Shown one piece after another: positions 2,950-50,030 of a stretch of DNA of 64,000 nt. The notes beneath the pieces were generated by a model. The model did not search any database and was not told where the DNA came from. It saw nothing but the letters and a program-made list of their open reading frames with translations. Position numbers and translations under genes: made by a program. Where the stretch lies: the IMG/VR virus record IMGVR_UViG_3300050034_000098, positions 15,758 to 79,757 of that record; one strand, written 5' to 3'. This stretch comes from a virus. The stretch's first letter is position 1. The number at the start of each line of letters is the position of its first letter.

Positions 2950-4129
2950 GCATAAATTCATCCCTACAATATAGTATATAGAGAACCGCTAGGTAAGGCA
3001 ACTTTAGGAATATTAATTAATTAACCCTTATATTTGTATGTTCATGGCTTTTAGTACCTTAAAAGTGACTAGTTTGTAGAAGAATTTAGACTTAGATTTG
3101 ATTTGTGTATATTAGTTAGAAGTGAATATAATTAATATAACTAAATACCATATAAAACAATGGATTATTAAATTATTTAGGAATATTTTAGATAATATAT
3201 TGGTAGGTATAATGCGCGCCCTCATAGCCCAGGGAACTTGCGTTCTTATTTACAAAATGCACCCCACCCCTTGCAACGCTTGCCACTGAGCCCCTATCTC
3301 TACACATAAAATCACAAAACAGATTCTAAAATATCTGTACTATAGCACCATCCATCAAATAACTTGCCTACTGTAAATTACCGATAAATATATATTATCG
3401 AAACAATTGTCTGCAAACCCTTATATAATATGCTTCTAGTAATATTCATATACTATTTGCCTACGCTTTGTCTACGGATTGACATTACTGAATTTATTCT
3501 ACGTTGGCAAACTTACTTTAACGAAAGTGTAACGTTGGGCATTTCTTCATTTTGTCTTAGCACGTATATTTTTGCATATTGGTTTTTAATTGGAAGTAAT
3601 ATGGTAAAATGTATTTAATAAATAGTATTTATGTAGTAATAATTTAGTATAATTGTTTACATTTTGAAATAATTAGAGTGAATGAATTGAATTACGTTGC
3701 ATTTGCAACATACCATGCATGGTATGGAATGAGAATTTTTATAGTACATATGTTAGTTATAGTTAACGATTGTAAGATATAATGTTTTTATGTTACTTTA
3801 TGTAAGTGCATATAACTTATCTATTTATCTTTTAACTCTATCAGTGTTATAAGTATACTATCATAGTTATAGTAGCGTTAACATATAGTATTAATAGTAT
3901 ATTATACTTCTATGCTTGTTATCATTCTCTTAGCAAGCATTAAAGTTAACACCGATAGTATTATATAGGCTATATCACTTAAGTACAGTGTAGTGACGAT
4001 AGGAACGAAGACAAAGACTAAAAGATCTTAATACTGGTTACTACTACTACATATATATCTAACATATTAGAATAAATTCTTTTGTTTCCCTGCCAGTCAA
4101 CTGATATATATTATCATTTAAATTTAACC
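2950..4129. other. Long non-coding region, candidate genome terminus/packaging region
   Basis: No credible ORF with RBS; TA-rich with palindromes; GC-rich island at about 3212-3298. Confidence 0.5.
3025..3089 (+). repeat. Dispersed 60-bp element, copy A
   Basis: TTTGTAGAAGAA at 3073; TGACTAGTTTGTAGAAGAA (3066-3084) is identical to the reverse complement of 49971-49989; upstream palindrome degenerate. Confidence 0.75.
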
Positions 4130-4162
4130 AAAAAGAAAAGCCTTGCTATTATGCAAGACTCT
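4130..4162 (-). terminator. Intrinsic terminator
   Basis: GAGTCTTGC-ATAATA-GCAAGGCTT followed by a T-rich tract on the minus strand. Confidence 0.65.
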
Positions 4163-4472
4163 TATCTTTTAATTCTCTTAACATTTTATAATCTCTTTTA
4201 CCAATATATCCACTTGGGTATTCATGAAATACTTCTATATAATTTTCAATTCTTTGTTCATCTGTATAAAAATCATCTTGGTAAGCAATCCCTATTACTT
4301 TGTGATCCTTTGCATATTCTGATTTTAAACTAGATACAAATGAATATCTCCCATTTTCATAAATTACTGGGCATTCTTTAAATGCTTTTAAAATATCTAA
4401 TATGTCTTGTCTTGCCTTATTTGGCAAAGTACTAAATTCTTCTAAAGTAATTGCATATTTTTTGTTTTTCAT
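4149..4472 (-). CDS. Hypothetical early protein (start revised to MKNKK)
   Basis: AAGGAG RBS before ATG at 4472. Confidence 0.65.
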   Translation of the reverse strand: MKNKKYAITLEEFSTLPNKARQDILDILKAFKECPVIYENGRYSFVSSLKSEYAKDHKVIGIAYQDDFYTDEQRIENYIEVFHEYPSGYIGKRDYKMLRELKDKSLA

Positions 4473-4476
4473 TATA

Positions 4477-4569
4477 TTATTCTCCTTTGTTATCTCTATA
4501 ATCTTGAGTCGTAAAGTATCCACAAAGCAGTAAAGCTGATCCAAAGGCTATGAAAGTAATAGTTAACAT
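4477..4569 (-). CDS. 30-aa hydrophobic peptide MLTITFIAFGSALLLCGYFTTQDYRDNKGE
   Basis: GAGGAG RBS; first gene after the promoter at 4606-4634. Confidence 0.55.
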   Translation of the reverse strand: MLTITFIAFGSALLLCGYFTTQDYRDNKGE

Positions 4570-4605
4570 TTCTAATGCATCTCCTCTTGTTTTTAACTAT
4601 AGCTT

Positions 4606-4634
4606 ATTCTATCATCTTTTAAATAATATGTCAA
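4606..4634 (-). promoter_or_regulatory. Early sigma70-type promoter
   Basis: TTGACA-17-TAGAAT. Confidence 0.75.
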
Positions 4635-4654
4635 CACCTTTATTAAAAATAAGC

Positions 4655-4689
4655 AAATAAAAAGCCTTACCATTTATAGATAAGACTTG
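4655..4689 (-). terminator. Intrinsic terminator
   Basis: AAGTCTTATC-loop-GGTAAGGCTT then TTTATT. Confidence 0.6.
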
Positions 4690-4695
4690 ATCTAC

Positions 4696-4962
4696 TTATA
4701 GAAGACTATAGTTTGTGATATCCTTTGGAATTTCATCAAATATTTCTTGAATTGTCATTCCATTTTTAATATCACTAGCTTCTAAATGCTCAAAAGGCAT
4801 TCCACACTCTGGTTCTAGTGTTATTACATTATCTTCTAAAATTGCCACTCCATACATCAATTTATCATCATCTTTATTATACCAGCATATTTTCTTTTCT
4901 GAGTTTATGAATTTTGTTACATTTGAGTTGACTTGTATTTTTATCATTATCATCTCAACCAC
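4696..4962 (-). CDS. Hypothetical early protein
   Basis: ORF directly behind the promoter at 4986-5014, RBS AAGGAG. Confidence 0.65.
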   Translation of the reverse strand: MVEMIMIKIQVNSNVTKFINSEKKICWYNKDDDKLMYGVAILEDNVITLEPECGMPFEHLEASDIKNGMTIQEIFDEIPKDITNYSLL

Positions 4963-4985
4963 TCCTTTAATTTATCTTATAACCC

Positions 4986-5014
4986 ATTATACATCTAATA
5001 AATAAGTCTGTCAA
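4986..5014 (-). promoter_or_regulatory. Early sigma70-type promoter (perfect consensus)
   Basis: TTGACA-17-TATAAT. Confidence 0.85.
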
Positions 5015-5035
5015 TACTGTTTTAATAAGTAAAAA

Positions 5036-5242
5036 CTATTTATTCAGATTAAAATTTATTTGTTCAAGAATTTCATCAACTATAACATTGGATGAAAGAG
5101 CCTCAAATAATAATTCTTTTGCCTTTGTAGCAGAAACATTATTAACGTTAACAATAGTATCAACAATTCGCGAAATAACGTATTTATCATAATCAATTAT
5201 TATTCCTTTATTTTTACCATCGGTAATTTCTACTTTATACAT
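5036..5242 (-). CDS. Hypothetical early protein
   Basis: ORF behind the promoter at 5276-5304; RBS AGGGG. Confidence 0.65.
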   Translation of the reverse strand: MYKVEITDGKNKGIIIDYDKYVISRIVDTIVNVNNVSATKAKELLFEALSSNVIVDEILEQINFNLNK

Positions 5243-5275
5243 TTAAAACGCCCCTTTGTTTTATTTACTATAATC

Positions 5276-5304
5276 ATTATAACCCAAAACAAAACATATT
5301 GCAA
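5276..5304 (-). promoter_or_regulatory. Early sigma70-type promoter
   Basis: TTGCAA-17-TATAAT; -10 lies within the palindrome TATAAT-C-ATTATA (5269-5281). Confidence 0.75.
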
Positions 5305-5344
5305 GCATTATCTTAAATCATTTTTAATACTTTTAAATCATAAT

Positions 5345-5404
5345 CCTACACACTTATATAGCCTCTCAATATTATCGTCTAAAACAACGCAGTATAGAGA
5401 CTAA
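5345..5404 (+). repeat. Dispersed 60-bp element, copy F (degenerate)
   Basis: CCTACACACTTATATAG...AATATTATCGTCTAAAA...TATAGAGA with the same 48-bp spacing. Confidence 0.55.
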
Positions 5405-5434: not shown

Positions 5435-5439
5435 GGAAA

Positions 5440-5628
5440 TCATACTATATAATTATCTTTTTTATTAGTTTTGTCAAATTCTTCTATCATTTCGTCTAAA
5501 CTATTTTTATATTGTTTTAAAATACCTTTCGTTGTTCCTGGTATAAATCCATCACTATATTTTAGTTCAATAAAAGCTATAGCTTCGTTAGTTTCTTTTA
5601 TTTTTTGTTGCATTTCAATATTTGTCAT
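5440..5628 (-). CDS. Hypothetical early protein
   Basis: ORF track, RBS GGAG. Confidence 0.55.
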   Translation of the reverse strand: MTNIEMQQKIKETNEAIAFIELKYSDGFIPGTTKGILKQYKNSLDEMIEEFDKTNKKDNYIV

Positions 5629-6489: not shown

Positions 6490-6500
6490 TATTCTCTCCT

Positions 6501-16517: not shown

Positions 16518-16845
16518 AGAAGCCTCGTTGTTTTGTTGCTTGTAACTGTTATGAATTTGGAGAACATTGTGAAATAACTAGAGGACAGGCACTTGATAAA
16601 TGCAATGGTTGCGAATTATATTTTGAGAATGTATTAGATCATGAGGAGGAAGTTAATAATGAAAAAAGCAACTGAATTAGAATTCTTAGAATGGTTTTAT
16701 TTCAATTGTGATTTTGGACCAGCAGACAGTGATGTAAAATATATGATGAAAGAAAATTTTATAGAAGAAACAGGGAAAGAGTTACCTGACAGTTATCCAC
16801 TAAGTGAGGATGAATAAATTATATATCATTTGATTCTATCTGAAA

Positions 16846-16905
16846 TTCTTCTACAAATACCTATAAATTAACATATAATATTAAAGGCTTATACAAGTGT
16901 ATAGG
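16846..16905 (-). repeat. Dispersed 60-bp element, copy E
   Basis: Minus strand CCTATACACTTGTATAAG...TAATATTATATGTTAA...TTTGTAGAAGAA with 48-bp spacing. Confidence 0.8.
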
Positions 16906-16918
16906 TCTTATTTTTTTA
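16884..16918 (+). terminator. Probable intrinsic terminator (overlaps the element E palindrome)
   Basis: AAGGCTTATAC-AAGT-GTATAGGTCTT then ATTTTTTT. Confidence 0.55.
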
Positions 16919-16928
16919 TATTATTTTA

Positions 16929-16957
16929 TTGACTTTTTAGCATGGTGATGTTATACT
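16929..16957 (+). promoter_or_regulatory. sigma70-type promoter
   Basis: TTGACT-17-TATACT. Confidence 0.75.
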
Positions 16958-16989
16958 AATATTATAAAAATAAAAGGAGATGTAAATAA

Positions 16990-17736
16990 TTGAGTGATAC
17001 AGAAATTACAAATTCACTAAGAGTCGCACTTCGCGAAAGATATATGATGCCTGAATGGATTCTAATGGAGGAAGTAGGGAATGCGACTGGTGGGCGTTGT
17101 AGCCGTTATGCCGATGCGTTGGCTTATAACCTATATCCATCTAAAAATTATCAAAAGATTGGTTTTGAAATTAAAGCATCAAAAGGTGACTTAAGAAGAG
17201 AACTAAAAGACGGTTCTAAATCTAATGCAATTGCACAATATTGTGATGAGTGGTATTTATTAGTTCCAAAAGGACTATGTGATAATGAAGAAATTCCATT
17301 AACTTGGGGAATTATGGAGTTAAACAATGACAAAATAAGAATCAAAAAGAAAGCTGAAAAAATAGTTAATAAAATTCCATTTGATAATGATATCATTTCA
17401 GGAGTTTTACAATCAGTAATGAGATTAGCAAGAAATAAATATGAATGGAACTCAAATATTTTAAGAGGTAAAATTGAAAAGGAAAATTCAGCTAGAATTG
17501 ATGAAAGAGTATCTCTTAGAATAAGAGAATTAGAAGAAGACGTAAGAGTCTTTCGGGAAATTAAACAAAAATTAGGACTGAGATTATATGGAATACTTAA
17601 CTCGGATGAATTTATAAAACAATTTAAATTAGCACAACAAATTTCAGACCAATACATTGAAGGAAGAGCATCTCAACTTGAGGTTATAGCGAAAAGACTA
17701 CTTAGCGAATCAGAAAATCTACGTAGAATTAAATAA
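16990..17736 (+). CDS. MmcB-like PD-(D/E)XK nuclease
   Basis: EEVGNATG...RYADALA.NLYPS....GFEIKASKGDLRREL...K..AIAQYCDEWYL. Confidence 0.7.
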   Translation: MSDTEITNSLRVALRERYMMPEWILMEEVGNATGGRCSRYADALAYNLYPSKNYQKIGFEIKASKGDLRRELKDGSKSNAIAQYCDEWYLLVPKGLCDNEEIPLTWGIMELNNDKIRIKKKAEKIVNKIPFDNDIISGVLQSVMRLARNKYEWNSNILRGKIEKENSARIDERVSLRIRELEEDVRVFREIKQKLGLRLYGILNSDEFIKQFKLAQQISDQYIEGRASQLEVIAKRLLSESENLRRIK

Positions 17737-17750
17737 AAGGTGGTTGAAAA

Positions 17751-18179
17751 ATGAATTATTCAGAAGAATTAGTTGAAACTCTTGGCAAGCTAAAAACAAT
17801 TATAGATGATATTGAATTGCAGAGAAAACGATTAAATGAAAAATTATCATCACTTGACAAGTCACAAATTGATGTTGAACACTTATTACAATTAGGAAAT
17901 TTAGATGGAAAGGGACTTGTTAAATGTGGGGGTGTTCTTAGAGATTTAAGAATCGAAAGAGATGCGGTTAAGACAGAGTTATTTGTTTTGGAACATTTAT
18001 ATAAAATAGTTAATTCAGATAACGGTGGATTTAAAAGTAAAATCATAAGCTTGGCGAATAATACAAAAGAAACATATGAATCATCACAACAAAGAAAATA
18101 TCGCATTAGAAATGTTGATAAAGATTTTGTCTTATCAGTTATAAAAGATGAAGATGTTTTAAAGAATTTGGTATTTTAA
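17751..18179 (+). CDS. Hypothetical coiled-coil phage protein
   Basis: ORF track. Confidence 0.7.
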   Translation: MNYSEELVETLGKLKTIIDDIELQRKRLNEKLSSLDKSQIDVEHLLQLGNLDGKGLVKCGGVLRDLRIERDAVKTELFVLEHLYKIVNSDNGGFKSKIISLANNTKETYESSQQRKYRIRNVDKDFVLSVIKDEDVLKNLVF

Positions 18180-20301: not shown

Positions 20302-20688
20302 ATTAAGAAAGGATTTGATTACATGTACGCAATTTATGATGTAAAAGGTAACTATTATTTGTCTGGAAAAGATAGTGCAGTAAAAATATTTAAAACCAAA
20401 GAACATGCAATAAAACGATTAGAAAGATATGTTCCAGATAATTTGTTTGTTGTAAAAGTTTCACTTAATATTGATGGATATATTGATACAAAGCACTAAG
20501 AAAGGAATTATTAATATGGTAAAGGGAAATATTCATAAGAAAATAACAAATGAAGATAAATTTGTTAGAAAATATTATTGTGAACACGCAAGACTAAATT
20601 CAATTAGATTTGATAAGAAATTTAATAAACGAAAACTAAGAAGATATTTAAAAGATTTAGATAATGTATAAAAGAAGGGAAATAATAT

Positions 20689-21170: not shown

Positions 21171-22468
21171 ATGAATCAGAAAATAGTTAATTTTGGAATT
21201 GAACTGCCTTTAGAGTGTTTTTCTTACGATGAATATAGAAGTCGTGGTTGTATAAATTATTATAAAATTAAAAAATATGGAGATTGGTTATATGGTCAAT
21301 TTACACATTTAAAAGTAGAACATAAAAATGATATGTTTAACTACGAACTTGGCAGTTTTGATAAAGAAAATAAATTCATAGCAATTTTATATTGGCATGC
21401 GAATGATTATTATCATAGCATTTTAGATGTGGAGGGATAAATAATATGGCGGCTTTAGATTATGGGAGTATTGTTAAAGTAAATGGTAAAATGGTACAAA
21501 CAAAAATGTTTATGGATATGAAAAAATCAGTTGGATATACAGTTAGTAAATCAGTATATGGTGGAAATGAAATAGAAATTAAAGGAAATTTTTTCTCTTA
21601 TCTAGGAGATAAAGAATTTACAGTATGTGTATATAAAACATGTTTAGTGTTTTTGTTAAAGGGAAAAGTAGTAAAGGTAATTCATGGAACTGACAATAAT
21701 TATGATTTACCATATGAAAAATTTACTCATAAAGATAATATTAATGGTATAAAAATTATGATAAAAGGCAACAAAACTGGAGAATACCGTTATAAATTAA
21801 GGTTTTGGTATAAAAACAATTTGTATGAATGTATTTATGGATATGGAGTTGACTTAAACTTAAAGTATTGGTATAATTTACACAACAATGAAAAAAATTA
21901 CTTATCAAAATACTGGTTTAATAATTAAGGAGGTGTGATTAATGGCAACTTTATGTATGTTTTTGATATATTGGTGTGGGTTTATGGTTGGTGGGTTAAT
22001 TGGATTAGATGTCATGAGTATTTTTTATGGTGTTATATTGGGAATAATTGGAACAACTATTGTAGAATGGAATAATAAATAAAAAGGAGAAATGATATGA
22101 AAGATATTGAAAAAATGGTAATGGAAAATAAATATGGTAATTCGGCAAAAATAAACTTAGAAGAAGCAATTAAAAAATTTGAAATGTTATACGTAGCAGA
22201 AACCGAAGATTATATTGAAACAGATGATACCAAAATGATAAAAGAAATACCAAAAGAATATCATGTATTTGGTACAGAAATGGAGCAAATGAAAATTAGT
22301 GCATATGATATTGTAGAAAACGCTTGTGAAGAATTATTTGAAGATGCTATGGACTCTGTATATAATATTAATGATTTACAAAAATTTATTGATTATTGGA
22401 TTGAACAAAATGCAAGAGGAGCAGACACTTATTATCCAGATTATAAATATGGGGTGATTTTAAAATGA
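21171..22468 (+). other. Hypothetical ORFs 21171-21440, 21446-21928, 22097-22468 and a small membrane ORF
   Basis: ORF track, RBSs. Confidence 0.65.
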
Positions 22469-22857: not shown

Positions 22858-23139
22858 AATGAAATATAACTGGTTTGTATAATTTGTAATTGAAACACCA
22901 TCCCCAACCACTTTCGGAAACTTATTAGTAACTTGTAAAGAATTAGAGATAGAACAGCATTTAAATAGTGTACTAAGTAATATGAGTACTTTGGGATATG
23001 CTACAGTATTATTTTACAAAAAATTGGAGGACTAAAAAATGAAAGAGAATTTAAAACCAGCGAAAGGAATTTTAACAGCAATGGCTTATGGTTTAATTTT
23101 ATGGGTTTTAATAGGGTTTTTCGTATACAAAATAATCAA

Positions 23140-23204
23140 CCTATAGAAGTATAAGGACATAGTAAATTATATCTAAATAATAGCATATTTGTAGAAGAAT
23201 TTAG
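23140..23204 (+). repeat. Dispersed 60-bp element, copy C
   Basis: CCTATAGAAGTATAAGG...TAAATTATATCTAAA...TTTGTAGAAGAATTTAG (17 bp identical to copy A), 48-bp spacing. Confidence 0.8.
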
Positions 23205-23365
23205 GATTAAAACGGAAAGGAGTACTAATTTTTATGGTCATAAATTTTATAAAATACAAGAATCTTAAAGAATTATTCAAATTAAAGAAATATGAATTAG
23301 CAAAATTATTCTGTAAAAAATATAAAATAAATTATTATAAAACAAAAAGAAAGTGGAGTGAGTAA

Positions 23366-24871
23366 GTGAATGCAATAAATGGTTTAACCGAAATGTTTAA
23401 AAGAAATCAAGATAAACAAACGGAACTTGGTTATACAGCTTATCACACAATAAAAGAAATTAATGATTTTATTAGCAAAATGGATCAAATGAATGATGAT
23501 CTTCTTTATATCAAAAAGGGAATTATAGCACTTGAAAATGAAGAAAAATACGAGAAGGCATTAAAATTTATAGTTGAAAATTTGCTAATAAAACGAGATG
23601 AGGTATTTTGTGAAAACCATTGTCCCCTTACTATGAATTGTAAAACACAAAATTGCTACGAACAAATTATAAAATATGTTAAGAGAAGAGTTGGGATAAA
23701 TGAAAATTAATGAAGCAATACAAATTGTAGAACAAATTGAACAGACATTTGATCAAAATAGAGATTTTATGGTTGATACGGGGCAATATAAAGAAAAGAT
23801 TGAAGATATGACGAATAAAATTATAGCTTTAGATTTGGTTCTTAAAGAACTTAGAAGTTATATAAGAATATCAAACGAAGATCAAAATTATCATACACAT
23901 AGTTAATATAAAGGAGAGATAAAATGAAATTCATTAGTACGGAAGATATGATAAAAATATTTCAATCATATAAAGGTAAAAAAGATTGGGAACTTAAAGA
24001 AATGGAACAGATATTTGATAATTTTGGAGAAACGTGGTATATTGTGGATGGAACTTTTCAGAAAAGCAAAGATCCAATTCATAACATTAATGATATATTA
24101 GAAGAAGGATGGGAATAAATAGGGAAAATGTAGTCAGAGAATTAGTATTTGAGAACAATAAATTAAATCACGCATTAATTTTAATGGCAAAGACAATTCA
24201 AGAAGAATTTTTAGAAGATCTCTGTGATTGTTGTATTTTAAATGGGACTAATGAATGCAAGGTAACAGAGTGTGTTCAAGGAACAGTTAAATATTATAAA
24301 AGTAAATCAGGAATGAAAGGTGAGGACTAAATGCAAATAAACAACTATATTATTACTTGCACCGAATGTGGAGATAAGAGATATCTCATATATGGCAATA
24401 CTGATAAGGTAATTAAATTTTATGAAGACAAAGAATGGTCGATCCTATATATATAAAGATTATGGATTGTTGCCTATAGAATTAAAAGGGATTTGTCCTG
24501 ATTGTAAAAAGAATATTAAGATATTAGGAAGTGACTAAATGAAGTTTTTACAACGAGAAGAATATTTAAAATTACCTTGGATTAAACAAATAAATATGCT
24601 AACTTTTTTATATATGAGTAAATCAGAAATACCTTTTTATGTAAATAAGAAAATGAATAATTCTTTTTTTAAATTAAGGAAATTCTTTCAGACCAAACAA
24701 GAATATAAAAGCATTTATGTATTTTTATTGTCAACTGATAATGAATTTAAAAACTTGACAGAAATGTTTAAAGAGTGTAATATGTTCTATGAGAGGAAAA
24801 AATATAGTAGTAGCAAGGTTTCATCCGAATCATATAAGCCAATTAGTTTAGAAGATGTATTGAATTTATAA
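23366..24871 (+). other. Cluster of small hypothetical ORFs (23366-23710, 23700-23906, 23924-24118, 24109-24330, Zn-ribbon ORF at about 24331-24537, 24539-24871)
   Basis: ORF track and RBSs. Confidence 0.65.
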
Positions 24872-39132: not shown

Positions 39133-42100
39133 TTGAATAATAAAAAATGGTATGATAACGAAATTAGCCAAGGAATTATGAAAAAGAAATACTTTCATGA
39201 TGGAGAAACGTGTTTTAATGATATTGCAACTAGAATTAGTAATATTTATTCCGATGATATTAAAAAAGAAGTGTATAATGCACTTAATAAATGCGACATT
39301 TTACCAGCAGGAAGAACAATTGCAGGAGCAGGATTAAAAGGAAAGAAAAATGTGTCACTTTCCAACTGCTATATCTGTGAAAGCCCTCAAGATAATTTAG
39401 AGTCTATTAGTAAAGTAGACTTAGATATGTCCATCATCGGAAGTAGAGGGGGTGGAATTGGTTGTTCTTTAGATAATATTAGACCAAAAGGAACTATTAT
39501 TAATAATTCGGCTAAGTATTCTGATGGCGTAGAATTTGTATTAAGTAAATACAATAGTACTGGAGAATCAATCGGTCAGAATAACCGACATATGGCAATG
39601 ATGATGGCATTAAGTTGCACTCATCCAGATATTTATGAAATTCTTAATATTTTTATTAAAAACGAAAAGCTATCAGCAATGAATATTTCTATTAAATTTA
39701 CTGACAATTTTATGCAATCAGTTATCGATAACAAAGAAGTTGAGTTATATTTTAAGGTAGAATCAACGGGTGAAGAAATTAGAAAAACTATTAATGCAAA
39801 AGAGTTCTTTAATAAGTTTTGTGAGGTAAATAAAGACTTTGGTCAACCTGGGTTAATTTTTATTGATAGGGTTCAACGAAATAATCTTTTAAGTGGTTAC
39901 TCCGAATACCAAATTGAAGTATCAAATCCGTGTGCAGAATTTTTTGGTAATTCGGGTAATAGTTGTTTAACTGGAGATACCATTATTAGAACAATTGATG
40001 GTGTTCGTCAGCTAAAAGAACTTGTAGGAACATCAGGAATGGTATACTCAACAAATGATAAATATGAAAAATATGATAATGTTATCAGTAAGGGAACAAA
40101 AGAAGTCTATGCAGTAAAACTCCATAATGGGTTAACAGTAAAAGCAACAAAAGATCATAAGTTTTTAACAACATTAGGGTGGAAAGAGTGTAAAAATTTA
40201 GTTGTTGGAAAAGATAGTATAGTTGTAAATAAAGTATATAATGTTTTTGCAGTTAATGATTATGACGAAAGATATGAGATGTTTGGGTGGATGCATGGAG
40301 ACGGTTGGTATGGAACTACTACTGTTGGTATTTCTTTTAATTATGGGGATGGAGATAAGGATGTTAAAGAACGATTGTTACCATTGTTCAAAGAAGAATT
40401 TAAATGTAGTACTAATTCACCTCTAAAGGATGATGATGCATCATACCAGTTACAGTGTGCAACCCAATATGCCATGCAACACTGTAAAGATATTGGATTT
40501 GTTCAACAACGTGCATGTAACAAAGAATTACCAACATCATTTTATGGTTGGACATTAAAACAGCAAATATCCTTTATTCGTGGACTAATGACAGCCGATG
40601 GATTTATTACAGGGACAACAAATGCACAGGTAGCATTTTGTTCGACAAGTAGTAAACTGATTCACCAAATTCAGAATTTCTTTTATGCAATTGGACTACA
40701 GTCAAGATTAATGGCAACTGTTTTTAGAGAAGAATTAAATCGTAAACCACAGTATAAATTAATATTGGCAGGCAAGAGTGCTAAAAATTATCACAGAATT
40801 TTTGGGTTTTCTGGTAGTAAAAAAGAAGATAAGTTTAAACCCGGTATTGTAGATACTAGAAAAGATAGTTTTATTATAGATAGTATAGAAGTTTGTGGAA
40901 ATGAAGAAGTATTTGATATTTTAAATGTCAATGATACTAATGCATTTTATGCTAATGGTATGGCAGTTCATAATTGTAATTTACAAAGTATTAATTTATA
41001 TAATTTAGTTAAAAATAAGTTCACAAAAGATGCAAAAATTGATTACGATTTATTAGTAAAAAATGTTAAGTTATCAATTGATATGTTAAATCAAACATTA
41101 GATTATGGATATGATATGCAACCACTTGATATGAATAGAAAATGTATTGATGACTGGAGAAGTATTGGACTTGGAGTATTTGGTCTAGCAGATATGTTTG
41201 TAGCCCTTGGAGTTGGATATGGCTCAAAAGAATCAGTAGATCTTGTTGCAGACCTATTTGAAAGAATTAATTATACAGCACTAGAAGAATCATGTAACCT
41301 TGCAAGAATTAATAAACCATTTGGAAAATATGATTGGAATAAAACAAAAGAATCAGGCATGATTAAAGAATTAGAGTTTACAAATGAAACATTATATAAT
41401 AAGATTATGAAAGATGGTCTTAGAAACGGAACACTAATTTCTGTAGCCCCGACGGGAACCCTTAGTTTATTTGCAGGTGGTCTTGCAGGAGGCGTAGAAC
41501 CTCTCTTTAAGGTCAGTTATGAAAGAACGACACACTCAACAGAAGATAAAGGAATTAAATTTAGAGTATTTGCCAAGTCAGTAAAGGAATTACTAGAATA
41601 TAATAACCTACCATTGACAACTTCCGATGAAGAAATTAAAAAATTATTTCCATTTATTATAGAAAGCCAAGAATTAAACCCGACCGATAGAATTAGAGTT
41701 CAATCAATTATGCAACAATATGTAGATAATGCAATTAGTTCTACTATCAATTTACCAAAAGGAACAACAACCGAAGAAATTTCTGATATTTATTTAGATT
41801 CATGGAAACAGGGATTAAAAGGAATTACAGTTTTTGTGGATGAATGTAAACGTGCTAATATTTTGGGTGTAACTGATAAAAAAGATAATGAAATTGTATT
41901 TGATTCTATTGTACCTGAAAAACGAAGAAAAATTAAAAAAGTAAATGGTAATACCTATAAGAAAGAAACCTCATGCGTACCATCAATGTATGTAACAGTT
42001 AATAGAAATGATGCAGGAGATATTTTTGAAGTGTTTACGGCAACGTCATCTGGATGTAAAAGTAACATTGGAACTATTACAAGATTAGTATCTTATGCCC

Positions 42101-42378
42101 TTAGGAGTGGATCTAGTGTAAAAGGAATTATTAATGAATTAAAAGAAAATAAGTGTGAAGCTTGCCAATTATTAAGAAGAAAAGGAAATAAAGAAATTTC
42201 AAGTTCTTGTGGAAATGCTATTGCAGAAGCCCTTGAAGAAGAGTATAATAATGGTAAAGAAGTAAAAGAAGTAAGTACCGATGGATTAATGAAGTGTCCT
42301 GAATGTGGAAAATACTCACTAAAACTTGATGGGCACTGCCAGACGTGCCAGGAATGCAGTTGGTCCATCTGTAATTAA
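39133..42378 (+). CDS. nrdJ: Class II (B12-dependent) ribonucleotide reductase containing an intein
   Basis: PAGR, SNC, RGGGIG, NPCAE, CNL.SINL, RSIGLGV.GLAD, SVAPTGTLS, GVEP, DNAISSTINLP; C-terminal TSCPD-like and Zn-ribbon regions. Confidence 0.92.
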   Translation: MNNKKWYDNEISQGIMKKKYFHDGETCFNDIATRISNIYSDDIKKEVYNALNKCDILPAGRTIAGAGLKGKKNVSLSNCYICESPQDNLESISKVDLDMSIIGSRGGGIGCSLDNIRPKGTIINNSAKYSDGVEFVLSKYNSTGESIGQNNRHMAMMMALSCTHPDIYEILNIFIKNEKLSAMNISIKFTDNFMQSVIDNKEVELYFKVESTGEEIRKTINAKEFFNKFCEVNKDFGQPGLIFIDRVQRNNLLSGYSEYQIEVSNPCAEFFGNSGNSCLTGDTIIRTIDGVRQLKELVGTSGMVYSTNDKYEKYDNVISKGTKEVYAVKLHNGLTVKATKDHKFLTTLGWKECKNLVVGKDSIVVNKVYNVFAVNDYDERYEMFGWMHGDGWYGTTTVGISFNYGDGDKDVKERLLPLFKEEFKCSTNSPLKDDDASYQLQCATQYAMQHCKDIGFVQQRACNKELPTSFYGWTLKQQISFIRGLMTADGFITGTTNAQVAFCSTSSKLIHQIQNFFYAIGLQSRLMATVFREELNRKPQYKLILAGKSAKNYHRIFGFSGSKKEDKFKPGIVDTRKDSFIIDSIEVCGNEEVFDILNVNDTNAFYANGMAVHNCNLQSINLYNLVKNKFTKDAKIDYDLLVKNVKLSIDMLNQTLDYGYDMQPLDMNRKCIDDWRSIGLGVFGLADMFVALGVGYGSKESVDLVADLFERINYTALEESCNLARINKPFGKYDWNKTKESGMIKELEFTNETLYNKIMKDGLRNGTLISVAPTGTLSLFAGGLAGGVEPLFKVSYERTTHSTEDKGIKFRVFAKSVKELLEYNNLPLTTSDEEIKKLFPFIIESQELNPTDRIRVQSIMQQYVDNAISSTINLPKGTTTEEISDIYLDSWKQGLKGITVFVDECKRANILGVTDKKDNEIVFDSIVPEKRRKIKKVNGNTYKKETSCVPSMYVTVNRNDAGDIFEVFTATSSGCKSNIGTITRLVSYALRSGSSVKGIINELKENKCEACQLLRRKGNKEISSSCGNAIAEALEEEYNNGKEVKEVSTDGLMKCPECGKYSLKLDGHCQTCQECSWSICN
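39964..40974 (+). mobile_element. Intein with LAGLIDADG homing endonuclease (337 aa)
   Basis: Starts CLTGDT, block B VKATKDHKF, LAGLIDADG motifs FGWMHGDG and IRGLMTADG, ends AVHN followed by extein Cys. Confidence 0.93.
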
Positions 42379-42768: not shown

Positions 42769-43425
42769 TTGAAAATAGTAAAAAGAAGTGTAGAATTGAT
42801 TAATCCACCAACCTATAAAGATTTATTAGAAAAATGTGAAACAGCAGGTAGAACATGTTATAAAAGTGACAATATGATTAGTGAGGGATCGGCTGAAAGG
42901 CTAATCTCTTCATTAATTAAAAGTGGACATCATAGTATTTTAGAATTTGGTAATATTATGTTTAAAGTAGTTTGTGATCGCAAAGATCTTGCACAACTGT
43001 CAAGACATAGGCTTTTTTCTTTCGCAGTCCAGTCACAACGCTATGTAAATTATAGTAGTAATAAATTTAATAATTCAGTAACATTTATTCAACCAAATGG
43101 ATTAACATCTCCACAATTGTATATATGGAAAGAAAGTTGTTATAGAACTGAAAAAGAATATATGAATTTATTACAGTTAAAAGCAAAACCCGAATTGGCA
43201 AGAAGCGTTTTAAATAATTCGGTTATGACAGAAATGTGTATGAGTGCAAATGTTAGAGAAATTAGACATATGATTGATTTAAGAAGTGATATTCATGCAC
43301 AAGATGATATTAGATTAATTTCAAACTTATTATTAGATAAACTATATAATTTATATCCAGTATTTTTTAAAGATTTGGCAGAAAAATATGGTAGAAGCGA
43401 AGGAGATTTAATTAATGAAAATTAA
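42769..43425 (+). CDS. thyX: FAD-dependent thymidylate synthase
   Basis: GHHSILEF...QLSRHR..SF...SQRYV (RHRx7S motif), ELAR..L, LR....AQ.DIR. Confidence 0.92.
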   Translation: MKIVKRSVELINPPTYKDLLEKCETAGRTCYKSDNMISEGSAERLISSLIKSGHHSILEFGNIMFKVVCDRKDLAQLSRHRLFSFAVQSQRYVNYSSNKFNNSVTFIQPNGLTSPQLYIWKESCYRTEKEYMNLLQLKAKPELARSVLNNSVMTEMCMSANVREIRHMIDLRSDIHAQDDIRLISNLLLDKLYNLYPVFFKDLAEKYGRSEGDLINEN

Positions 43426-45013: not shown

Positions 45014-45015
45014 TT

Positions 45016-45521: not shown

Positions 45522-46151
45522 TTGGACTTGACAAACATGAGTGATATTATTGACGAAATTATAATTGAATTAAAAAAAGAACTATGTTCGACTGATTGGG
45601 AAATTAGATCAGCGGATGGATATTTAGGTGTAAGTCCCGATAACATAGTAAGTAAAAAAGATGAATACGATTATTTATGTGATGATTTTAGAGTTTGTTT
45701 AGAATTATTAAATGAAAAAGAATTAAAAGTATTTCAACTTCATATGATTAGAGGTTTAACCTCTGTGTCTTGTGGAAAAGAAATGAATTTAAATGATAGG
45801 ACAATTCGCAATCATGTAAAACATATCCGTGATAAAATTCGTGAAGAGTTTCCATATTTATACGAAGAATGGAAAAGTATTCGATGTGATACGTCTGAAA
45901 CAAATGGTTGCTATTCTTCTATTGGCTGTCTATCAGATTATTATAGAAATGCAAATTTAGGTGCTGAGTGGTGCAGAGATAATACAAAAGATAGAAAAGA
46001 GACATATAGGAAGGTTTATAAAAGTAAAAGTGGTTGCTTAATTCCTGAATATATGAATGAACGATTTGGTGATAGTAAAACAAAATGCGTTTATTGTGGT
46101 ATTAAATGCTTTAGAAAGAAAATGAACAAATTGGAGGAATTAAATGTTTAA
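45522..46151 (+). CDS. Sigma70 region-4/ArpU-like transcriptional regulator with Cys-rich C-terminus
   Basis: LELLNEKELKVF.LH.I.GLT....GKEMNL..RTI...V..IR.KI HTH; additional Cys residues including CVYC. Confidence 0.7.
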   Translation: MDLTNMSDIIDEIIIELKKELCSTDWEIRSADGYLGVSPDNIVSKKDEYDYLCDDFRVCLELLNEKELKVFQLHMIRGLTSVSCGKEMNLNDRTIRNHVKHIRDKIREEFPYLYEEWKSIRCDTSETNGCYSSIGCLSDYYRNANLGAEWCRDNTKDRKETYRKVYKSKSGCLIPEYMNERFGDSKTKCVYCGIKCFRKKMNKLEELNV

Positions 46152-46944: not shown

Positions 46945-46991
46945 GCTAGACACATATAAAACAAGGTGATATAATAAAAGGAGAGTAAATA

Positions 46992-48485
46992 ATGAAAACA
47001 AGTATTGATGCGTTTGGAACTACAGTAAATATTAATGACGAAGTAATTTATTATAGTGGATACTCAGCATACTCCCCAATTAAGGGAGTAAATTATAAGG
47101 CATTAAATAAGGGAATTGTAACAAAGATTACCCCAAAAGGGGTTACAATAGACAAAGTAATTAATAGACCATCAAATAAAATTTATAAGTCCAATGATTT
47201 GCGAGTTTCTTTCTTAACAAAAATTGTATGTGAAATGCAGGATAGTTTAGTAGAATTGGCATATTTAGGAGGATTGCCCAATCAATATGGAAATAGCACA
47301 GGAAATCAAATTGCAATTAATGCACTAGAAAGATTTTATAGACAGATGGGAGTATCGGTATAGTAAAATTTTGTCAGATAAAATATACATTATTTATGAC
47401 GAAAGGATGACATAATGAATCATGTAATAATTAGAGGTAGTTTAGAAAAAGAAAGATTAATTAAGTTAGCAAAAGAAATTGTAGATAAAAATGATAAAGA
47501 AATAAAAAGACTTGATAAAATTATATATGATTGGGAAAATAGAGAAGGATCAATATTAAATAGATATTTTGGATATAAAAATGATAAGCGTAAAGAACAG
47601 GAATATTTAGGAGCATACACAACTCGCACATTTTATGGAAATGTTGGTGTATACAAATATTTAATTGAAGACTTAGAAAACTCTAATGATCACTTAGTTT
47701 CAATTCCGTGTTATTTATATAATTCTTTGAACAAGAAAGGAAACTAATAAATGAATAGAAATTTAGATGGAATTTATTTTAGAATTAAACGAGATAATAA
47801 ATATGAGAATATTTGTTTTAGCGATTTAACAGTTGAAGAAATGCAAGTAGTTATGAATGATAAGGGCATCCCTTGGTTAAGATCTATTTGTACTGAATTA
47901 GCAAATACTATAAAAGATATTGGGGAACAATTTAATATTGTAAATGGAGATGAAGATTAATGACAGTTGGAGAATTAAGAGAAAAGCTAAATGAATACGA
48001 TGATAATTTAGAATTATTTTTTAAAGATGAAGAATGGCACAATTGGAATCAACACGCAAAGCTAAGGGGGATAGAGATTGATAATCATGATAATTTGTGG
48101 TTCGTTGAAGGGGATGTAGTCGAATTTAATGAGGCAGATTTCAATGACTGATATAAACAAAATTCCAACAATAATAGATAATTCATTACTAAAAATAAAC
48201 CAATTAATAGTACACGGTAAATTACCGCCATGTGCAGATTTTAGTTTTTGGTGGAGTTATCTTGACAAGATAGGTTATAATATGATAAAAAGTATAAAAT
48301 CTTTTGATCTTTCTAAAATAACAGCAAAACAATATGGCGAGTTGGATTATGAATTATTTATAATAAACGAATATCAAGAGCAAGGTGAATTAACTGATAA
48401 CCAATATCTAGACTGGTTTATTGATGGATTGGCTGATTTTATTGAAGAGGTATATAATATATTAAAAGAGGTAAATAATGACTGA
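46992..48485 (+). other. Hypothetical ORFs (46992-47363, 47415-47747, 47751-47960, 47960-48151, 48129-48485)
   Basis: ORF track, RBSs. Confidence 0.65.
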
Positions 48486-48506
48486 TAAAAAAGGAGATGT
48501 TAAAAA

Positions 48507-48926
48507 ATGAATAAAAAATTAGAAATGACTAATTATGCACAAGAAATATTGGATATATTTAATGTGGTAATTAATGAGGATTTTAACATAGGGAATATAT
48601 ATGGTATATCTTTTGGGTTGAATCCATATCATTTTGATGAGTCTATGAATATATGTGATAATCATTGTAGAGAAAGCAATTATATTCTTCAAGAACTTAT
48701 TACAGGTAAATTAAAATTAATTAAAATTGAAAAATTTGTAGAACCTATTTATTGCGAAGAGGGTGAAGTATATAGCCATATTATGTCTAATGGATATCAA
48801 AGAGAATTACAATTTGTAGGTGGAGCTCAAGATTATTATAACAGAAAAATGAAGAATATGTTTCCTCGGGATACTAAATTACCACAAGCACAAATTAATG
48901 AAATTATTAAAGAAATGAAATCATGA
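48507..48926 (+). CDS. Hypothetical protein, paralog family member 4
   Basis: YHFDE...LITGK...KFVEPI...GEVY.HI..NG...KNMF...QAQINE. Confidence 0.7.
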   Translation: MNKKLEMTNYAQEILDIFNVVINEDFNIGNIYGISFGLNPYHFDESMNICDNHCRESNYILQELITGKLKLIKIEKFVEPIYCEEGEVYSHIMSNGYQRELQFVGGAQDYYNRKMKNMFPRDTKLPQAQINEIIKEMKS

Positions 48927-49923
48927 TAGATAAAAATGAATTAGAATTAAAACATGATATTAACGAAAATGTAAGTGCTACTGTGAATTTAAGTGAAGAT
49001 AAACAATCAATTAGTGCAGATTATAAAATATCTGATGCTACTATTTTATCAATGTCAAAAGATGACAAAGGATCTACGTCTGCTAAATTAAGTATTAAAT
49101 TTTAAAGGAGAATTAATAGTTGAATTATATTATATATGGAGTAATGACATTTATATTATTCTTATTTATAGTTGGGTTATTATGTTTTATTTATATCGCA
49201 TTGGAGGGCAATTATTAAATGACAGCAAAAGAAATTAGCGAAGAATTAGATAAGTTAAATAAAGATATTAATACTATTTCTAGTATTGTTATGAACCTAG
49301 AATCAGGCTTAGCAAGAGATGAATGGGGTAAAGTATTAGCAGTTTTAGGAAACGAAGTAAAGAAAAAGAATGATACCGAATATGAAGAAATAGGTAAATT
49401 AGAGTTGATTTGTCCTAAAGATTGGGATGGAGGTCTAATTAAATATGGAGATCAGAAATACAGAGTTAAATCTTGCGGATGTGATAATCTATAAAAGGAG
49501 ATAATTAAATGATAAAAGGTAAGCCATTATGTTTTGAAATTTGTAATTGTGGATACTATAACGAACATTGTTCTATTGAAACTGAAATTAATGATGAGTG
49601 TTCTGAATGTAAACTATATTTTGAGAATGCAATGAAATATAACCTTTTAGAAAGGGAATTAAATAGAAATGAAAGTAATTAAATTATTAAGTGAAATTTT
49701 TAAAGATATTATAGAATCTACCGAAGTAGCTAGTTTTATTTTTTTGATTGTTGGTGGTTTAATTTTTATGGGGATTGGTGAATTATTAAAATATATTTTA
49801 GGTGATTTATATTTTGCATATTTTATGGCAAGCTTATTTATGATCCTTATTAGCGGAATGTTTTGTCGTTCTATGTATTGTTTTTGTAGATATATTAAAA
49901 GAAAATGGAAAAGTTTAGATTGA
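48923..49923 (+). other. Last rightward small ORFs (48923-49105, 49219-49494, membrane ORF 49669-49923)
   Basis: ORF track. Confidence 0.6.
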
Positions 49924-49946
49924 ACCCTTAACGGGGTTCTTTTTAT
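49922..49946 (+). terminator. Intrinsic terminator ending the rightward region
   Basis: GAACCCT-TAAC-GGGGTTC-TTTTT. Confidence 0.85.
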
Positions 49947-49970
49947 TATACAATCCAACCTATCCCTATT

Positions 49971-50030
49971 TTCTTCTACAAACTAGTCATTTTTTTAACA
50001 TAATATTAGTACCCCCTATACTTATATAGG
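49971..50030 (-). repeat. Dispersed 60-bp element, copy B
   Basis: Minus strand CCTATA-TAAG-TATAGG (perfect palindrome)...TAATATTATGTTAAA...TGACTAGTTTGTAGAAGAA. Confidence 0.8.

What the first reader, a model, noticed from the sequence alone, without database searches (positions are those of the whole stretch)
3025..50030. Dispersed fixed-geometry 60-bp intergenic element in six copies: candidate phage-specific regulatory system
Seen in sequence: aligned from the first C, copies at 3025(+), 5345(+), 16905(-), 20242(+), 23140(+) and 50030(-) share a CCTATA-N4-T(A/G)TA palindrome (perfect CCTATA-TAAG-TATAGG at 50030), a central AA(T)ATTAT(AT)GTTAA core, and a distal box starting exactly 48 bp after the first C. 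That box is an exact TTTGTAGAAGAA in four copies and AATAGAGAAGAA / TATAGAGACTAA in the other two. Copies A and B share 19 identical bp 47 kb apart; A and C share 17. All copies are intergenic at transcription-unit borders, and none has a TTGACA-type -35. Inference: an activator-dependent or phage-sigma promoter. If TAGAAG is the -10, the palindrome centres near -56, like P2 Ogr-type activator sites. The sigma-like ORF at 45522 is the obvious cognate. Alternatives are nucleoid/partition or replication/packaging sites.
Basis: partly seen in the sequence, partly recalled or inferred. Interest (0 to 1): 0.82.

Follow-up and report, generated by a model that had tools for sequence, protein, structure and literature searches.

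The report
Dispersed phage regulatory cassette, seven copies
An uncultivated 84-kb peat phage carries seven copies of a fixed-geometry 75-85-bp intergenic element (dyad, AT-rich core, conserved box). It is real and under selection and is most likely a phage-specific promoter/operator cassette, a known genre in phages, but its reading direction and its binding factor remain unproven.

Summary
A seventh lies outside the window at genome 10463(-). In a leave-one-out matrix scan, six copies score 32-50 bits against at most 2.4 for any other site; copy B is marginal. All seven lie in the 8.4% of the genome that is non-coding. Nine copies, including two from other peat metagenomes, align without a gap.

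Conservation is blockwise: dyad 66%, core 63%, box 75%, spacers 24-39%. A 94.5%-identical strain shows purifying selection. A second contig shares only the 73-bp element, so the element is portable.

Copies D and E, the out-of-window G and the metagenome copy L144 sit 21-61 nt upstream of a same-strand start codon, and G heads the terminase block. B, C and F point antisense or at no gene.

The opposite strand also reads as a sigma70-type promoter (TCTACA-18-TATAAT), so direction needs 5'-end mapping.

The proposed cognate "sigma" (45522-46151) is a region-4-type HTH with a 4-Cys tail. The genome has no region 2, no phage RNA polymerase and no Ogr/Delta protein. Nearest analogues are T4 PeSLs, halovirus HF2 intergenic repeats and mycobacteriophage ESAS. 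This scan has not noted the element on other DNA. Interest is moderate.

The parts
3025..3109 (+). Copy A. The dyad is degenerate (CCCTTATATTTGTATG) and there is no core. The box at 3073-3084 and the downstream GATTTGATTTG block are perfect. It heads a ~1-kb stretch without convincing ORFs (3110-4148) and stands back-to-back with the sigma70 promoter at 2949-2921(-).
   Evidence: leave-one-out score 32.6 bits
5345..5429 (+). Copy B, the most degenerate member (box TATAGAGACTAA). It lies between two minus-strand genes, points antisense into 5440-5628(-), and stands back-to-back with the sigma70 promoter at 5304-5276(-).
   Evidence: leave-one-out score -2.1 against -4.9 for the best non-member
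16821..16905 (-). Copy C. Its dyad TATACA-CT-TGTATA also forms, with its flanks, a plus-strand terminator-like hairpin followed by a T-run (16884-16909). It points antisense into 16659-16817(+) and stands back-to-back with the sigma70 promoter at 16929-16957(+).
   Evidence: orthologue L166 and context-free homologue L144
20242..20326 (+). Copy D (box AATAGAGAAGAA). It is followed 21 nt later by the RBS and ATG of gene 20323-20499(+). Upstream lies a 320-nt non-coding stretch after the O-like initiator gene.
23140..23224 (+). Copy E. It fills the 87-nt gap between a 35-aa membrane-peptide gene, whose stop codon lies in the dyad (23144-23146), and gene 23234-23365(+). The start codon is 34 nt after the box.
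49946..50030 (-). Copy F, with a perfect dyad CCTATA-TAAG-TATAGG. It lies between the two convergent terminators 50070-50055(-) and 49922-49939(+), so no gene lies downstream in either direction.
   Evidence: partial orthologue in L259
2921..2949 (-). Canonical sigma70-type promoter TTGACA-17-TATACT for the minus-strand block. It diverges from copy A.
5276..5304 (-). Sigma70-type promoter TTGCAA-17-TATAAT for gene 5242-5036(-). It diverges from copy B.
16929..16957 (+). Sigma70-type promoter TTGACT-17-TATACT (TG-extended) for gene 16990-17736(+). It diverges from copy C. In strain L166 seven changes fall in its 17-nt spacer and both hexamers are unchanged.
45522..46151 (+). It has a sigma region-4-type HTH (residues ~55-110) and a C-terminal domain with four invariant Cys. 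It has no region 2. It is a candidate DNA-binding regulator, not a sigma factor.

Best explanation

**Anatomy (shown).**
- An invariant CC followed by a 14-bp dyad, TATAYA-NN-TRTATA.
- A variable 7-nt spacer of fixed length.
- An AT-rich core, AATATTATATGTTAA.
- A variable 10-nt spacer of fixed length.
- The box T(G/A)(T/G)AGA-N-K-AA, usually TTTGTAGAAGAA followed by TTTAG.
- In four copies, a GATTGGATTG-like tail.

**Mechanism (inferred).** Host RNA polymerase starts within or just after the cassette, and a dimeric DNA-binding protein on the dyad controls it. I cannot separate two sub-models and rate them about equal.
1. The box is a non-canonical -10 region and the core sits at -35. The dyad then centres near -55 as an activator site for a phage-modified polymerase.
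2. The left dyad arm (TATACA) and the core (TATTAT / AATTAT) form a weak sigmaA-type -35/-10 pair. The dyad then acts as an operator over the -35, and the box is a conserved leader at about +10 to +25.

**What each copy would do (inferred).**
- D and E would serve as internal promoters of the replication and nucleotide-metabolism block.
- G would drive the glycosyltransferase/terminase/structural block.
- A would drive a 1-kb non-coding stretch.
- B, C and F would fire antisense or terminal transcripts. Each of A, B and C stands back-to-back with a canonical early sigma70 promoter, so together they could form an early-to-later switch, as in phi29.

The cassette is also a portable module at mosaic junctions.
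For: 1. **Real composite family.** The family has fixed geometry. The dyad and the box do not occur as stand-alone sites in non-coding DNA; the core alone is too AT-rich to discriminate members.
2. **Blockwise conservation among old paralogues.** Copies are 41-64% identical overall. By block: dyad 66%, core 63%, box 75%, spacers 24% and 39%. This is the signature of a protein/polymerase contact array, not of recent transposition.
3. **Promoter-like spacing.** The core and box centres are about 23.5 bp apart, as in a -35/-10 pair. The dyad centre is 45 bp upstream of the box centre.
4. **Orientation.** D, E, G and L144 lie 21, 34, 54 and 44-61 nt upstream of a same-strand start codon. No other canonical promoter lies in the gap, except one that overlaps G. 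G precedes the block that leads to TerL and portal.
5. **Strand composition.** From the box onward the forward strand is G-rich and C-poor (13-15 G against 2-5 C in A, D, E, F and G), like sense strands in this genome.
6. **Purifying selection.** In strain L166 the element has 4 changes in 77 nt. The adjacent coding DNA has 12 in 94, and seven changes fall in the 17-nt spacer of the neighbouring sigma70 promoter. None of the four element changes touches the dyad arms or the box; one is in the core's TGTTAA tail.
7. **Portability.** L144 shares only the 73-bp element (90% identical) while its flanks are unrelated.
8. **Not structured RNA, not host DNA.** RNAalifold finds no consensus structure, and Rfam and tRNA scans are empty. 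None of 76 bait matches in 596 Gb of prokaryotic genomes carries the rest of the element.
9. **For sub-model 2.** G has a forward TTAACA-17-TATAAT over the dyad/core region. The L259 orthologue of F keeps the dyad and core in register while its box has decayed.
10. **For sub-model 1.** Copy A keeps a perfect box with hardly any dyad or core.
Against: - **No 5' ends.** The only RNA data were assembled metatranscriptome contigs. They give neither strand nor ends, and some run straight across copy E.
- **No forward hexamer looks like a good sigmaA -10.** TAGAAG lacks the final T.
- **No cognate factor.** The complete genome has no sigma region 2 and no phage RNA polymerase.
- **Copies without a gene.** B, C and F have no gene to serve. 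F sits between two convergent terminators.
- **A rival reading on the other strand.** The opposite strand gives TCTACA-18-TATAAT at 10 of 12 matches in C and E.
- **A damaging change in L144.** L144 carries T to C at alignment column 41. This would damage the core as a -10 on either strand.
- **Few relatives.** Only three related copies were found, so positional conservation is thinly sampled.
Confidence: 0.5

Rival explanations
1. Flipped reading. The element is a sigmaA-type promoter on the opposite strand. The box supplies an unusual, strongly conserved -35-position site (TTCTTCTACAAA, containing TCTACA). An 18-nt spacer follows, then the core supplies the -10 (TATAAT). The dyad lies at about +5 to +25 as an operator or a 5' hairpin. 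The long conserved -35-position box could be the site of a phage factor that replaces sigma region 4, as at T4 MotA-dependent middle promoters. The region-4-like HTH protein of ORF 45522 would fit that role.
For: - The consensus scan finds TCTACA-18-TATAAT (10 of 12) on the reverse strand of C and E, and CATAAT in F.
- The -10-like hexamer is TATAAT in C, D and E, GATAAT in B, CATAAT in F and TATAAA in G.
- Both L166 changes in this part fall in the would-be spacer.
- The only sigma-related protein in the phage is a region-4-like HTH.
- A', B' and C' point the same way as their neighbouring genes.
Against: - D', E', F', G' and L144' would fire antisense. E', G' and L144' would run directly into the end of a coding gene, with no room for a product.
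- Each of the three 'sense' copies has a better canonical sigma70 promoter between itself and the gene. C' would also run straight into a hairpin with a T-run.
- L144 changes the invariant second position of the would-be TATAAT.
- The L259 orthologue has lost the would-be -35.
- Conservation extends well outside the two hexamers.
- Matches of 10 of 12 are barely enriched over shuffles in this AT-rich DNA (77 found against 66.5 expected).
Confidence: 0.15
2. Not a promoter. The element is an orientation-tolerant DNA site array for a phage or host protein complex. Possible roles are genome organisation, replication or packaging control, transcription insulation between units, or preferred boundaries for recombinational module exchange.
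For: - Copies occur in both orientations relative to their neighbours. F lies where no promoter is needed and C lies between a terminator and a promoter.
- The copies divide the genome into seven segments, with inverted pairs G/A and C/D flanking 8.3-kb and 3.3-kb blocks.
- The dyad centre is CT in B, C and D. It is the reverse complement AG in E, F, G, L166 and L144.
- One variant RNA contig leaves the reference exactly at the centre of the copy C dyad (16896).
- L144 shares the element alone.
Against: - The 60-85-bp conservation is strongly asymmetric, with -35/-10-like block spacing.
- Four copies abut start codons on the same strand.
- The complete genome has no serine or tyrosine recombinase.
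- The single junction comes from an assembled contig and may simply be a relative with a different context.
- Promoter cassettes are themselves known recombination boundaries (PeSLs; PMC2839356), so these observations do not exclude the promoter reading.
Confidence: 0.2
3. A selfish miniature mobile element (MITE-like, or spread with homing endonucleases) with no function for the phage.
For: - The element has discrete boundaries. In L144 homology starts 1 nt before the CC and ends near column 82.
- The phage has two HNH endonuclease genes, one next to copy A.
Against: - The copies are old and diverged (41-64% identity), yet they keep three blocks and exact spacer lengths.
- The orthologue L166 shows purifying selection.
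- No terminal inverted repeats were noticed. Target duplications were not searched for systematically.
- No copy lies inside a gene.
- The element is absent from 596 Gb of prokaryotic genomes and from IMG/VR outside this lineage.
Confidence: 0.05

Closest known systems
T4-type phage PeSLs (promoter-early stem-loop cassettes; PMC2839356, PMC4122927)
   Same: Both are dispersed, conserved composite regulatory motifs in intergenic DNA that combine a dyad or stem-loop with a promoter. Both are found at boundaries where related phages differ in gene content, and both are portable between contexts.
   Different: PeSL promoters are near-consensus sigma70 (TTGACA-N17-TATAAT or close variants), and their stem-loops are G/C-rich terminators. 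Here the best-conserved block is not a sigma70 hexamer, and the dyad is AT-rich and only looks like a terminator in copy C. There are seven copies, not dozens. Module exchange is hinted at by two observations only.
Halovirus HF2 intergenic repeats (58-bp class I and 29-bp class II; PMC8707807)
   Same: Both are fixed-length intergenic repeats of similar size that are conserved in sequence and position among relatives. The HF2 repeats were shown by reporter assay to carry promoters, and counter-transcripts were also seen from that genome.
   Different: HF2 is an archaeal virus with an archaeal promoter type, and there is no sequence relation. Promoter activity has not been tested here.
phi29 early/late switch region (p4 sites, promoters A2c, A2b and A3; PMC3100819)
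   Same: In both, a dimer-type site with inverted repeats controls the choice between canonical early promoters and a later promoter within one short intergenic region. Copies A, B and C stand back-to-back with canonical sigma70 promoters.
   Different: phi29 has one such region, and the p4 site is CTTTTT-15 bp-AAAATG. Here there are seven dispersed copies, the distance from the dyad to the neighbouring early promoter varies (about 23, 40 and 75 nt), and no p4-like protein was identified.
Cluster K mycobacteriophage SAS/ESAS (PMC3203893)
   Same: Both combine an asymmetric conserved motif upstream of gene starts with an upstream imperfect inverted repeat. Both are dispersed through the genome, mostly in one orientation, conserved across relatives even next to unrelated genes, and of unproven function.
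   Different: The SAS abuts the start codon with pairing potential to rRNA (3-8 bp upstream from my own recollection of the paper). It is thought to act in translation, and the ESAS spacer is variable. Here the box-to-start distance varies from 21 to 61 nt, the internal spacers are fixed, and three copies have no gene.
P2 Ogr / P4 Delta-dependent late promoters
   Same: If TAGAAG were the -10, the dyad would centre near -55, as in these promoters.
   Different: The dyad sequence differs (TGT-N12-ACA in P2). No Ogr/Delta family protein is encoded. The host is probably a Clostridium-like Firmicute, not an enterobacterium.

Membership tests
Host sigma70/sigmaA-type promoter | A -35 hexamer like TTGACA and a -10 hexamer like TATAAT (A at position 2, T at position 6), 16-18 nt apart | tested here: inconclusive
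   Three registers fit. Reverse strand: TCTACA-18-TATAAT, 10 of 12. Forward strand: TATACA-17-TATTAT, about 9 of 12. With the box as the -10 (TAGAAG / AAGAAT), the fit is poor. Such matches are barely above the shuffle expectation in 29% GC DNA.
Host sigma70/sigmaA-type promoter | A transcript 5' end 6-8 nt downstream of the -10 | not testable with these tools
   Only assembled RNA contigs were available. They carry no strand or end information.
T4-type PeSL cassette | A near-consensus early promoter joined to a terminator stem-loop | tested here: not met
   The conserved blocks are not sigma70 consensus. The dyad is AT-rich, and only copy C has a stem followed by a T-run.
T4-type PeSL cassette | Sits at insertion, deletion or replacement boundaries between close relatives | tested here: inconclusive
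   L144 shares the element alone, and one variant contig breaks at the centre of the copy C dyad. Strain L166 is collinear.
Sigma factor (claimed for ORF 45522-46151) | Region 2 (-10 recognition and core binding) together with region 4 | tested here: not met
   Only region-4-type matches were found, all below the curated cut-offs. Of 22 homologues, 12 match region 4 and none matches region 2. PF04542 is absent from all six frames of the complete genome. Fold matches are to region-4 domains only, at weak E-values.
Ogr/Delta-activated late promoter | An Ogr/Delta zinc-finger activator is encoded | tested here: not met
   PF04606 has no match at E <= 1 in the genome.
Phage RNA-polymerase promoter (T7-like) | The phage encodes a single-subunit RNA polymerase | tested here: not met
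   PF00940 gave no match, although the control genomes also gave none. The large ORFs are PolIII alpha, RNR, tape measure and tail proteins.
Structured RNA element or known RNA family | A conserved secondary structure or an Rfam match | tested here: not met
   RNAalifold predicts 0 pairs on nine copies. Rfam is empty at gathering threshold for the window and at E <= 1 for 2950-4250.
Site-specific recombination site | A cognate serine or tyrosine recombinase is encoded | tested here: not met
   PF00239 and PF00589 are absent from the genome.
MITE-like mobile element | Terminal inverted repeats, target-site duplication and near-identical recent copies | tested here: inconclusive
   The copies are 41-64% identical with blockwise conservation, which argues against recent spread. 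TIRs and TSDs were not searched for systematically, because the right-hand boundary is fuzzy.

The most novel reading that the evidence does not exclude
The cassette may define a new promoter class for a Clostridium-type virulent phage. Host RNA polymerase would be re-aimed by a small phage factor that lacks sigma region 2, possibly the region-4-HTH/4-Cys protein of ORF 45522 acting by appropriation or as half of a split sigma. The tripartite site would then serve two purposes: it would turn on middle and late units (D, E, G), and it would fire antisense transcripts (B, C, F) back into early operons as a built-in shut-off.
Probability: 0.15. Interest if true: 0.6.

Novelty: new member of a known kind. 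Interest (0 to 1): 0.38.

Why it matters
Conserved dispersed cassettes are often the only handle on the transcription programme of an uncultivated phage. If mapped, this one would define the temporal classes of an 84-kb phage that has no close relative in the phage collections searched.

It would also give a specific DNA target for finding the unknown regulator, and a further example of regulatory cassettes that double as recombination boundaries. The genre is already well documented (T4 PeSLs, HF2 repeats, mycobacteriophage SAS/ESAS and stoperators), so a specialist would find it neat rather than surprising.

Tried and rejected
**Searches for relatives**
- Megablast of 20 kb against the phage collection found nothing.
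- tblastn with PolIII alpha found only relatives at 33% identity or less. tblastn with ORF 45522 found none.
- IMG/VR searches with PolIII alpha, TerL and the 269-aa late protein (alone and as a two-sequence alignment) found only distant relatives or none. None of those loci carried the element.
- Pattern scans of IMG/VR gave two identical chance-like hits and 118 box-only hits, all negative for the rest of the element.
- The genome-contig scan gave 76 bait hits, all negative.
- The metagenome scan gave 120 hits, of which only L166 and L144 are real.
- Homologues of the 160-aa protein 21446-21928 are chromosomal Clostridium-type genes, not phage relatives.
- Contigs with homologues of the glycosyltransferase downstream of G carry no element. 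The 90%-identical contig has no DNA on file.

**RNA evidence**
- Reads were laid for three metatranscriptome runs and one DNA run. Only assembled contigs were available, with low, patchy cover and no strand or end information.
- Contigs spanning copy E (22995-23602) and one starting at 23143 cannot be interpreted. Stretches without cover carry no meaning.

**Other tests that led nowhere**
- Single-sequence AlphaFold of ORF 45537 failed (pLDDT 39). The model built from an alignment was moderate (pLDDT 69). Foldseek matches were all weak region-4 domains.
- Pfam, PHROG and NCBIfam scans of about 60 proteins near the copies found no other DNA-binding regulator.
- No XRE-type HTH is present in the genome, although L144 has one next to its copy.
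- The scan's own index holds no look-alike of the element on other DNA.

**Ideas considered and dropped**
- A terminator role for the dyad: only copy C has a T-run.
- A lambda nut-like RNA site: the dyad centre flips and there is no consensus fold.
- A nick or pac site: nothing was testable.

Full report
**Setting**

The window is bases 15758-79757 of an 83,923-bp virus record. The record is 29% GC and has a 127-bp terminal overlap. IMG/VR classes it as having direct terminal repeats, and CheckV rates it 100% complete. The DNA is held by several peat metagenomes.

It is a siphovirus-like phage. It encodes PolIII alpha, primase, a DnaB-type helicase, an intein-bearing RNR, ThyX, dUTPase and an Erf-like annealing protein. 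It also encodes an O-like initiator, TerL, portal, a tape-measure protein and tail proteins.

My own codon-score gene map shows three blocks:
- A late block on the minus strand. It runs from window 2899 leftwards through the record's ends and down to window 50076.
- A small leftward block at 7889-4149.
- A long rightward block at 8104-49923.

Homologues of one phage gene sit in Clostridium-type chromosomes. That is the only hint of the host.

Yes. All six copies are as described.

- The exact 12-mer TTTGTAGAAGAA occurs four times. From base composition I expect about 0.03.
- A matrix built from the six copies found a seventh copy, G, at genome 10463(-), outside the window. It scored 30 bits, and the next best site scored 3.8.
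- Leave-one-out scans recover every copy directly after the six training copies. A and C-G score 32-50 bits against at most 2.4 for the best non-member. B is marginal. Thirty Markov-2 simulated genomes never exceed 4.9 bits.
- All seven copies lie in the 8.4% of the genome that is non-coding.
- Nine copies align without any gap over 110 columns, so the 'fixed geometry' claim is correct.
- The dyad and the box never occur as stand-alone sites in non-coding DNA. The core alone is too AT-rich to discriminate members.

**Anatomy**

Counting from the first C as position 1:
- An invariant CC.
- A 14-bp dyad, TATAYA-NN-TRTATA, centred between positions 9 and 10.
- A free 7-nt spacer.
- The core AATATTATATGTTAA at positions 24-38.
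- A free 10-nt spacer.
- The box at positions 49-60, with T..AGA..AA invariant, usually followed by TTTAG.
- In A, D, F and G, a GATTGGATTG-like tail reaching about position 82.

Mean pairwise identity among the seven paralogues is 66%, 24%, 63%, 39% and 75% for dyad, spacer, core, spacer and box. Whole copies are only 41-64% identical. These are therefore old copies held by selection on three blocks and on the spacer lengths.

The two central bases of the dyad are CT in B, C and D. They are the reverse complement, AG, in E, F, G, L166 and L144. Only the arms seem to matter. That fits a symmetric dimer site, or hairpin-mediated template switching.

**Relatives**

The phage collection and IMG/VR hold no close relative, and no hit there carries the element.

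- **Metagenome scan.** A bait of CCTATA plus the box gave 120 hits. Scoring the unbaited positions leaves two real ones.
- **L166.** This contig is 94.5% identical to window 16724-17974. Its copy of C has 4 changes in 77 nt: two at the dyad centre, one in the TGTTAA tail of the core and one in the second spacer. The upstream coding DNA has 12 changes in 94 nt. Seven changes fall in the 17-nt spacer of the adjacent sigma70 promoter, whose hexamers are untouched. That is purifying selection, with a neighbouring promoter as an internal control.
- **L144.** It shares only the 73-bp element (90% identical to C) plus a 138-bp piece resembling the 3' end of TerL. There the element lies, in forward orientation, between an XRE-type HTH gene and a 115-aa gene.
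- **L259.** This is a 12.5-kb contig, about 70% identical and syntenic with window 42-52 kb. At the position of F, just after the same late-operon terminator, it keeps the left dyad and the core in exact register. Its box has decayed.
- **Prokaryotic genomes.** None of 76 bait matches in 596 Gb carries the rest of the element.

The element is therefore specific to this phage lineage and portable. Its two halves, dyad plus core and box plus tail, can survive separately. Copy A is the mirror case to L259: a perfect box with hardly any dyad or core.

**Which way is it read?**

- D ends at the ATG of 20323.
- E fills the 87-nt gap between a 35-aa gene, whose stop codon lies in the dyad, and the ATG at 23234.
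- G lies 30 nt upstream of a glycosyltransferase gene that leads to TerL and portal.
- L144 lies 35-50 nt upstream of its 115-aa gene.
- The box-to-start distances are 21, 34, 54 and 44-61 nt. No separate canonical promoter lies in the gap.
- From the box onward the forward strand is G-rich and C-poor, like sense strands in this genome.
- A heads a 1-kb stretch without convincing ORFs.
- B and C point back into the preceding gene. F lies between two convergent terminators.
- A, B and C each stand back-to-back with a canonical sigma70 promoter that serves the neighbouring gene.

Flipped orientation:
- The consensus scan reads the other strand as TCTACA-18-TATAAT, with the dyad just after +1.
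- That is attractive on paper: a perfect -10 plus a long conserved box at the -35 position, as at T4 middle promoters.
- However, E', G' and L144' would then fire straight into coding genes.
- The three sense copies would each be redundant with a better promoter downstream of them.
- C' would meet a hairpin with a T-run at once.
- L144 has mutated the key A of the would-be TATAAT, and L259 has lost the would-be -35.

A third register also fits. On the forward strand, TATACA-17-TATTAT would make the dyad an operator over the -35 and the box a leader. G supports this with a forward TTAACA-17-TATAAT over the same region. L259 supports it by keeping the dyad and core.

In 29% GC DNA, consensus matches of this quality are hardly above shuffle expectation. 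I therefore do not treat any hexamer assignment as shown. I favour forward reading overall at about 0.5, split evenly between the two forward sub-models.

**The proposed cognate**

- ORF 45522-46151 matches only sigma region 4 / GerE-type HTH models, all below their cut-offs.
- A full HMMER search found 28 relatives at E <= 0.001. In an alignment of 21 homologues with the query, four C-terminal Cys are invariant. Twelve of the 22 sequences match region 4 and none matches region 2.
- The AlphaFold model built from that alignment (pLDDT 69) resembles isolated region-4 domains only, at weak E-values.
- In six frames the complete genome has no Sigma70_r2, no T7-type polymerase, no Ogr/Delta, no XRE HTH and no recombinase.
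- This protein is the genome's only region-4-like HTH.

It is therefore a plausible DNA-binding regulator but not a sigma factor. Nothing links it to the element beyond its being the only candidate. It also lies deep inside the unit that copy E would drive.

**What it is not**

- It is not a structured RNA. RNAalifold predicts no pairs, and Rfam and tRNA scans are empty.
- It is not a host-derived repeat.
- It is not a recently spreading mobile element.

**Transcript evidence**

Three peat metatranscriptome runs hold parts of the phage, but only as assembled contigs. They show neither strand nor ends. One variant contig departs from the reference exactly at the centre of the copy C dyad (16896). 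Together with L144, that hints that the cassettes mark module boundaries, as T4 PeSLs do. It is a single assembled record.

**Comparison with known systems**

The genre is well known:
- T4-type PeSLs (PMC2839356, PMC4122927).
- Halovirus HF2 intergenic repeats, shown to carry promoters (PMC8707807).
- Cluster K mycobacteriophage SAS/ESAS (PMC3203893).
- The phi29 p4-controlled early/late region (PMC3100819).

This element shares the logic of all of these. It is a member of none by sequence or by their defining features (see the membership table).

**Verdict**

A promoter/operator cassette read in the forward direction is the best reading, at about 0.5. The sigma assignment is rejected, and the direction and the factor remain open. 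I class it as a new member of a known kind, of moderate interest.

Noticed in passing
window 3110-4148: About 1 kb after copy A has no convincing ORF. It contains a GC-rich island (about 3213-3300, near 40% GC in 29% GC surroundings) and ends at a bidirectional terminator near 4136-4163. There is no Rfam or tRNA match. It could be a non-coding RNA, an origin or a packaging region.
   Followed up: partly
window 16929-16957 compared with L166: In a 94.5%-identical strain, seven changes fall in the 17-nt spacer of a sigma70-type promoter, while both hexamers and the spacer length are kept. This is a clean natural example of promoter constraint.
   Followed up: yes
window 39133-42378; L259:3030-4553: The RNR large subunit here carries an intein with a LAGLIDADG domain. 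In the ~70% identical relative L259 the ThyX gene carries an intein, while this phage's ThyX (42769-43425) does not. Inteins therefore appear to move among the nucleotide-metabolism genes of this lineage.
   Followed up: no
genome 9627-16246 (partly window 1-489): Four family-2 glycosyltransferase genes lie in the minus-strand block upstream of the terminase genes: genome 9627-10349, 13392-14219, 14679-15374 and 15494-16246. That is unusually many for a phage.
   Followed up: partly
L144:684-821: A metagenome contig that shares copy C also has a 138-bp stretch about 80% identical to the 3' end of this phage's TerL gene (genome 7016-7153), but not in a terminase context. It may be a gene remnant or a second portable piece.
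   Followed up: no
window 23039-23146: A 35-aa hydrophobic peptide gene with a good RBS ends with its stop codon inside the dyad of copy E.
   Followed up: no
window 45522-46151: This is a family of region-4-type HTH proteins with a conserved C-terminal 4-Cys domain (C172, C189, C192 and C196). HMMER found 28 relatives at E <= 0.001 among 1.8 billion cluster representatives. No Pfam family covers the Cys domain.
   Followed up: partly
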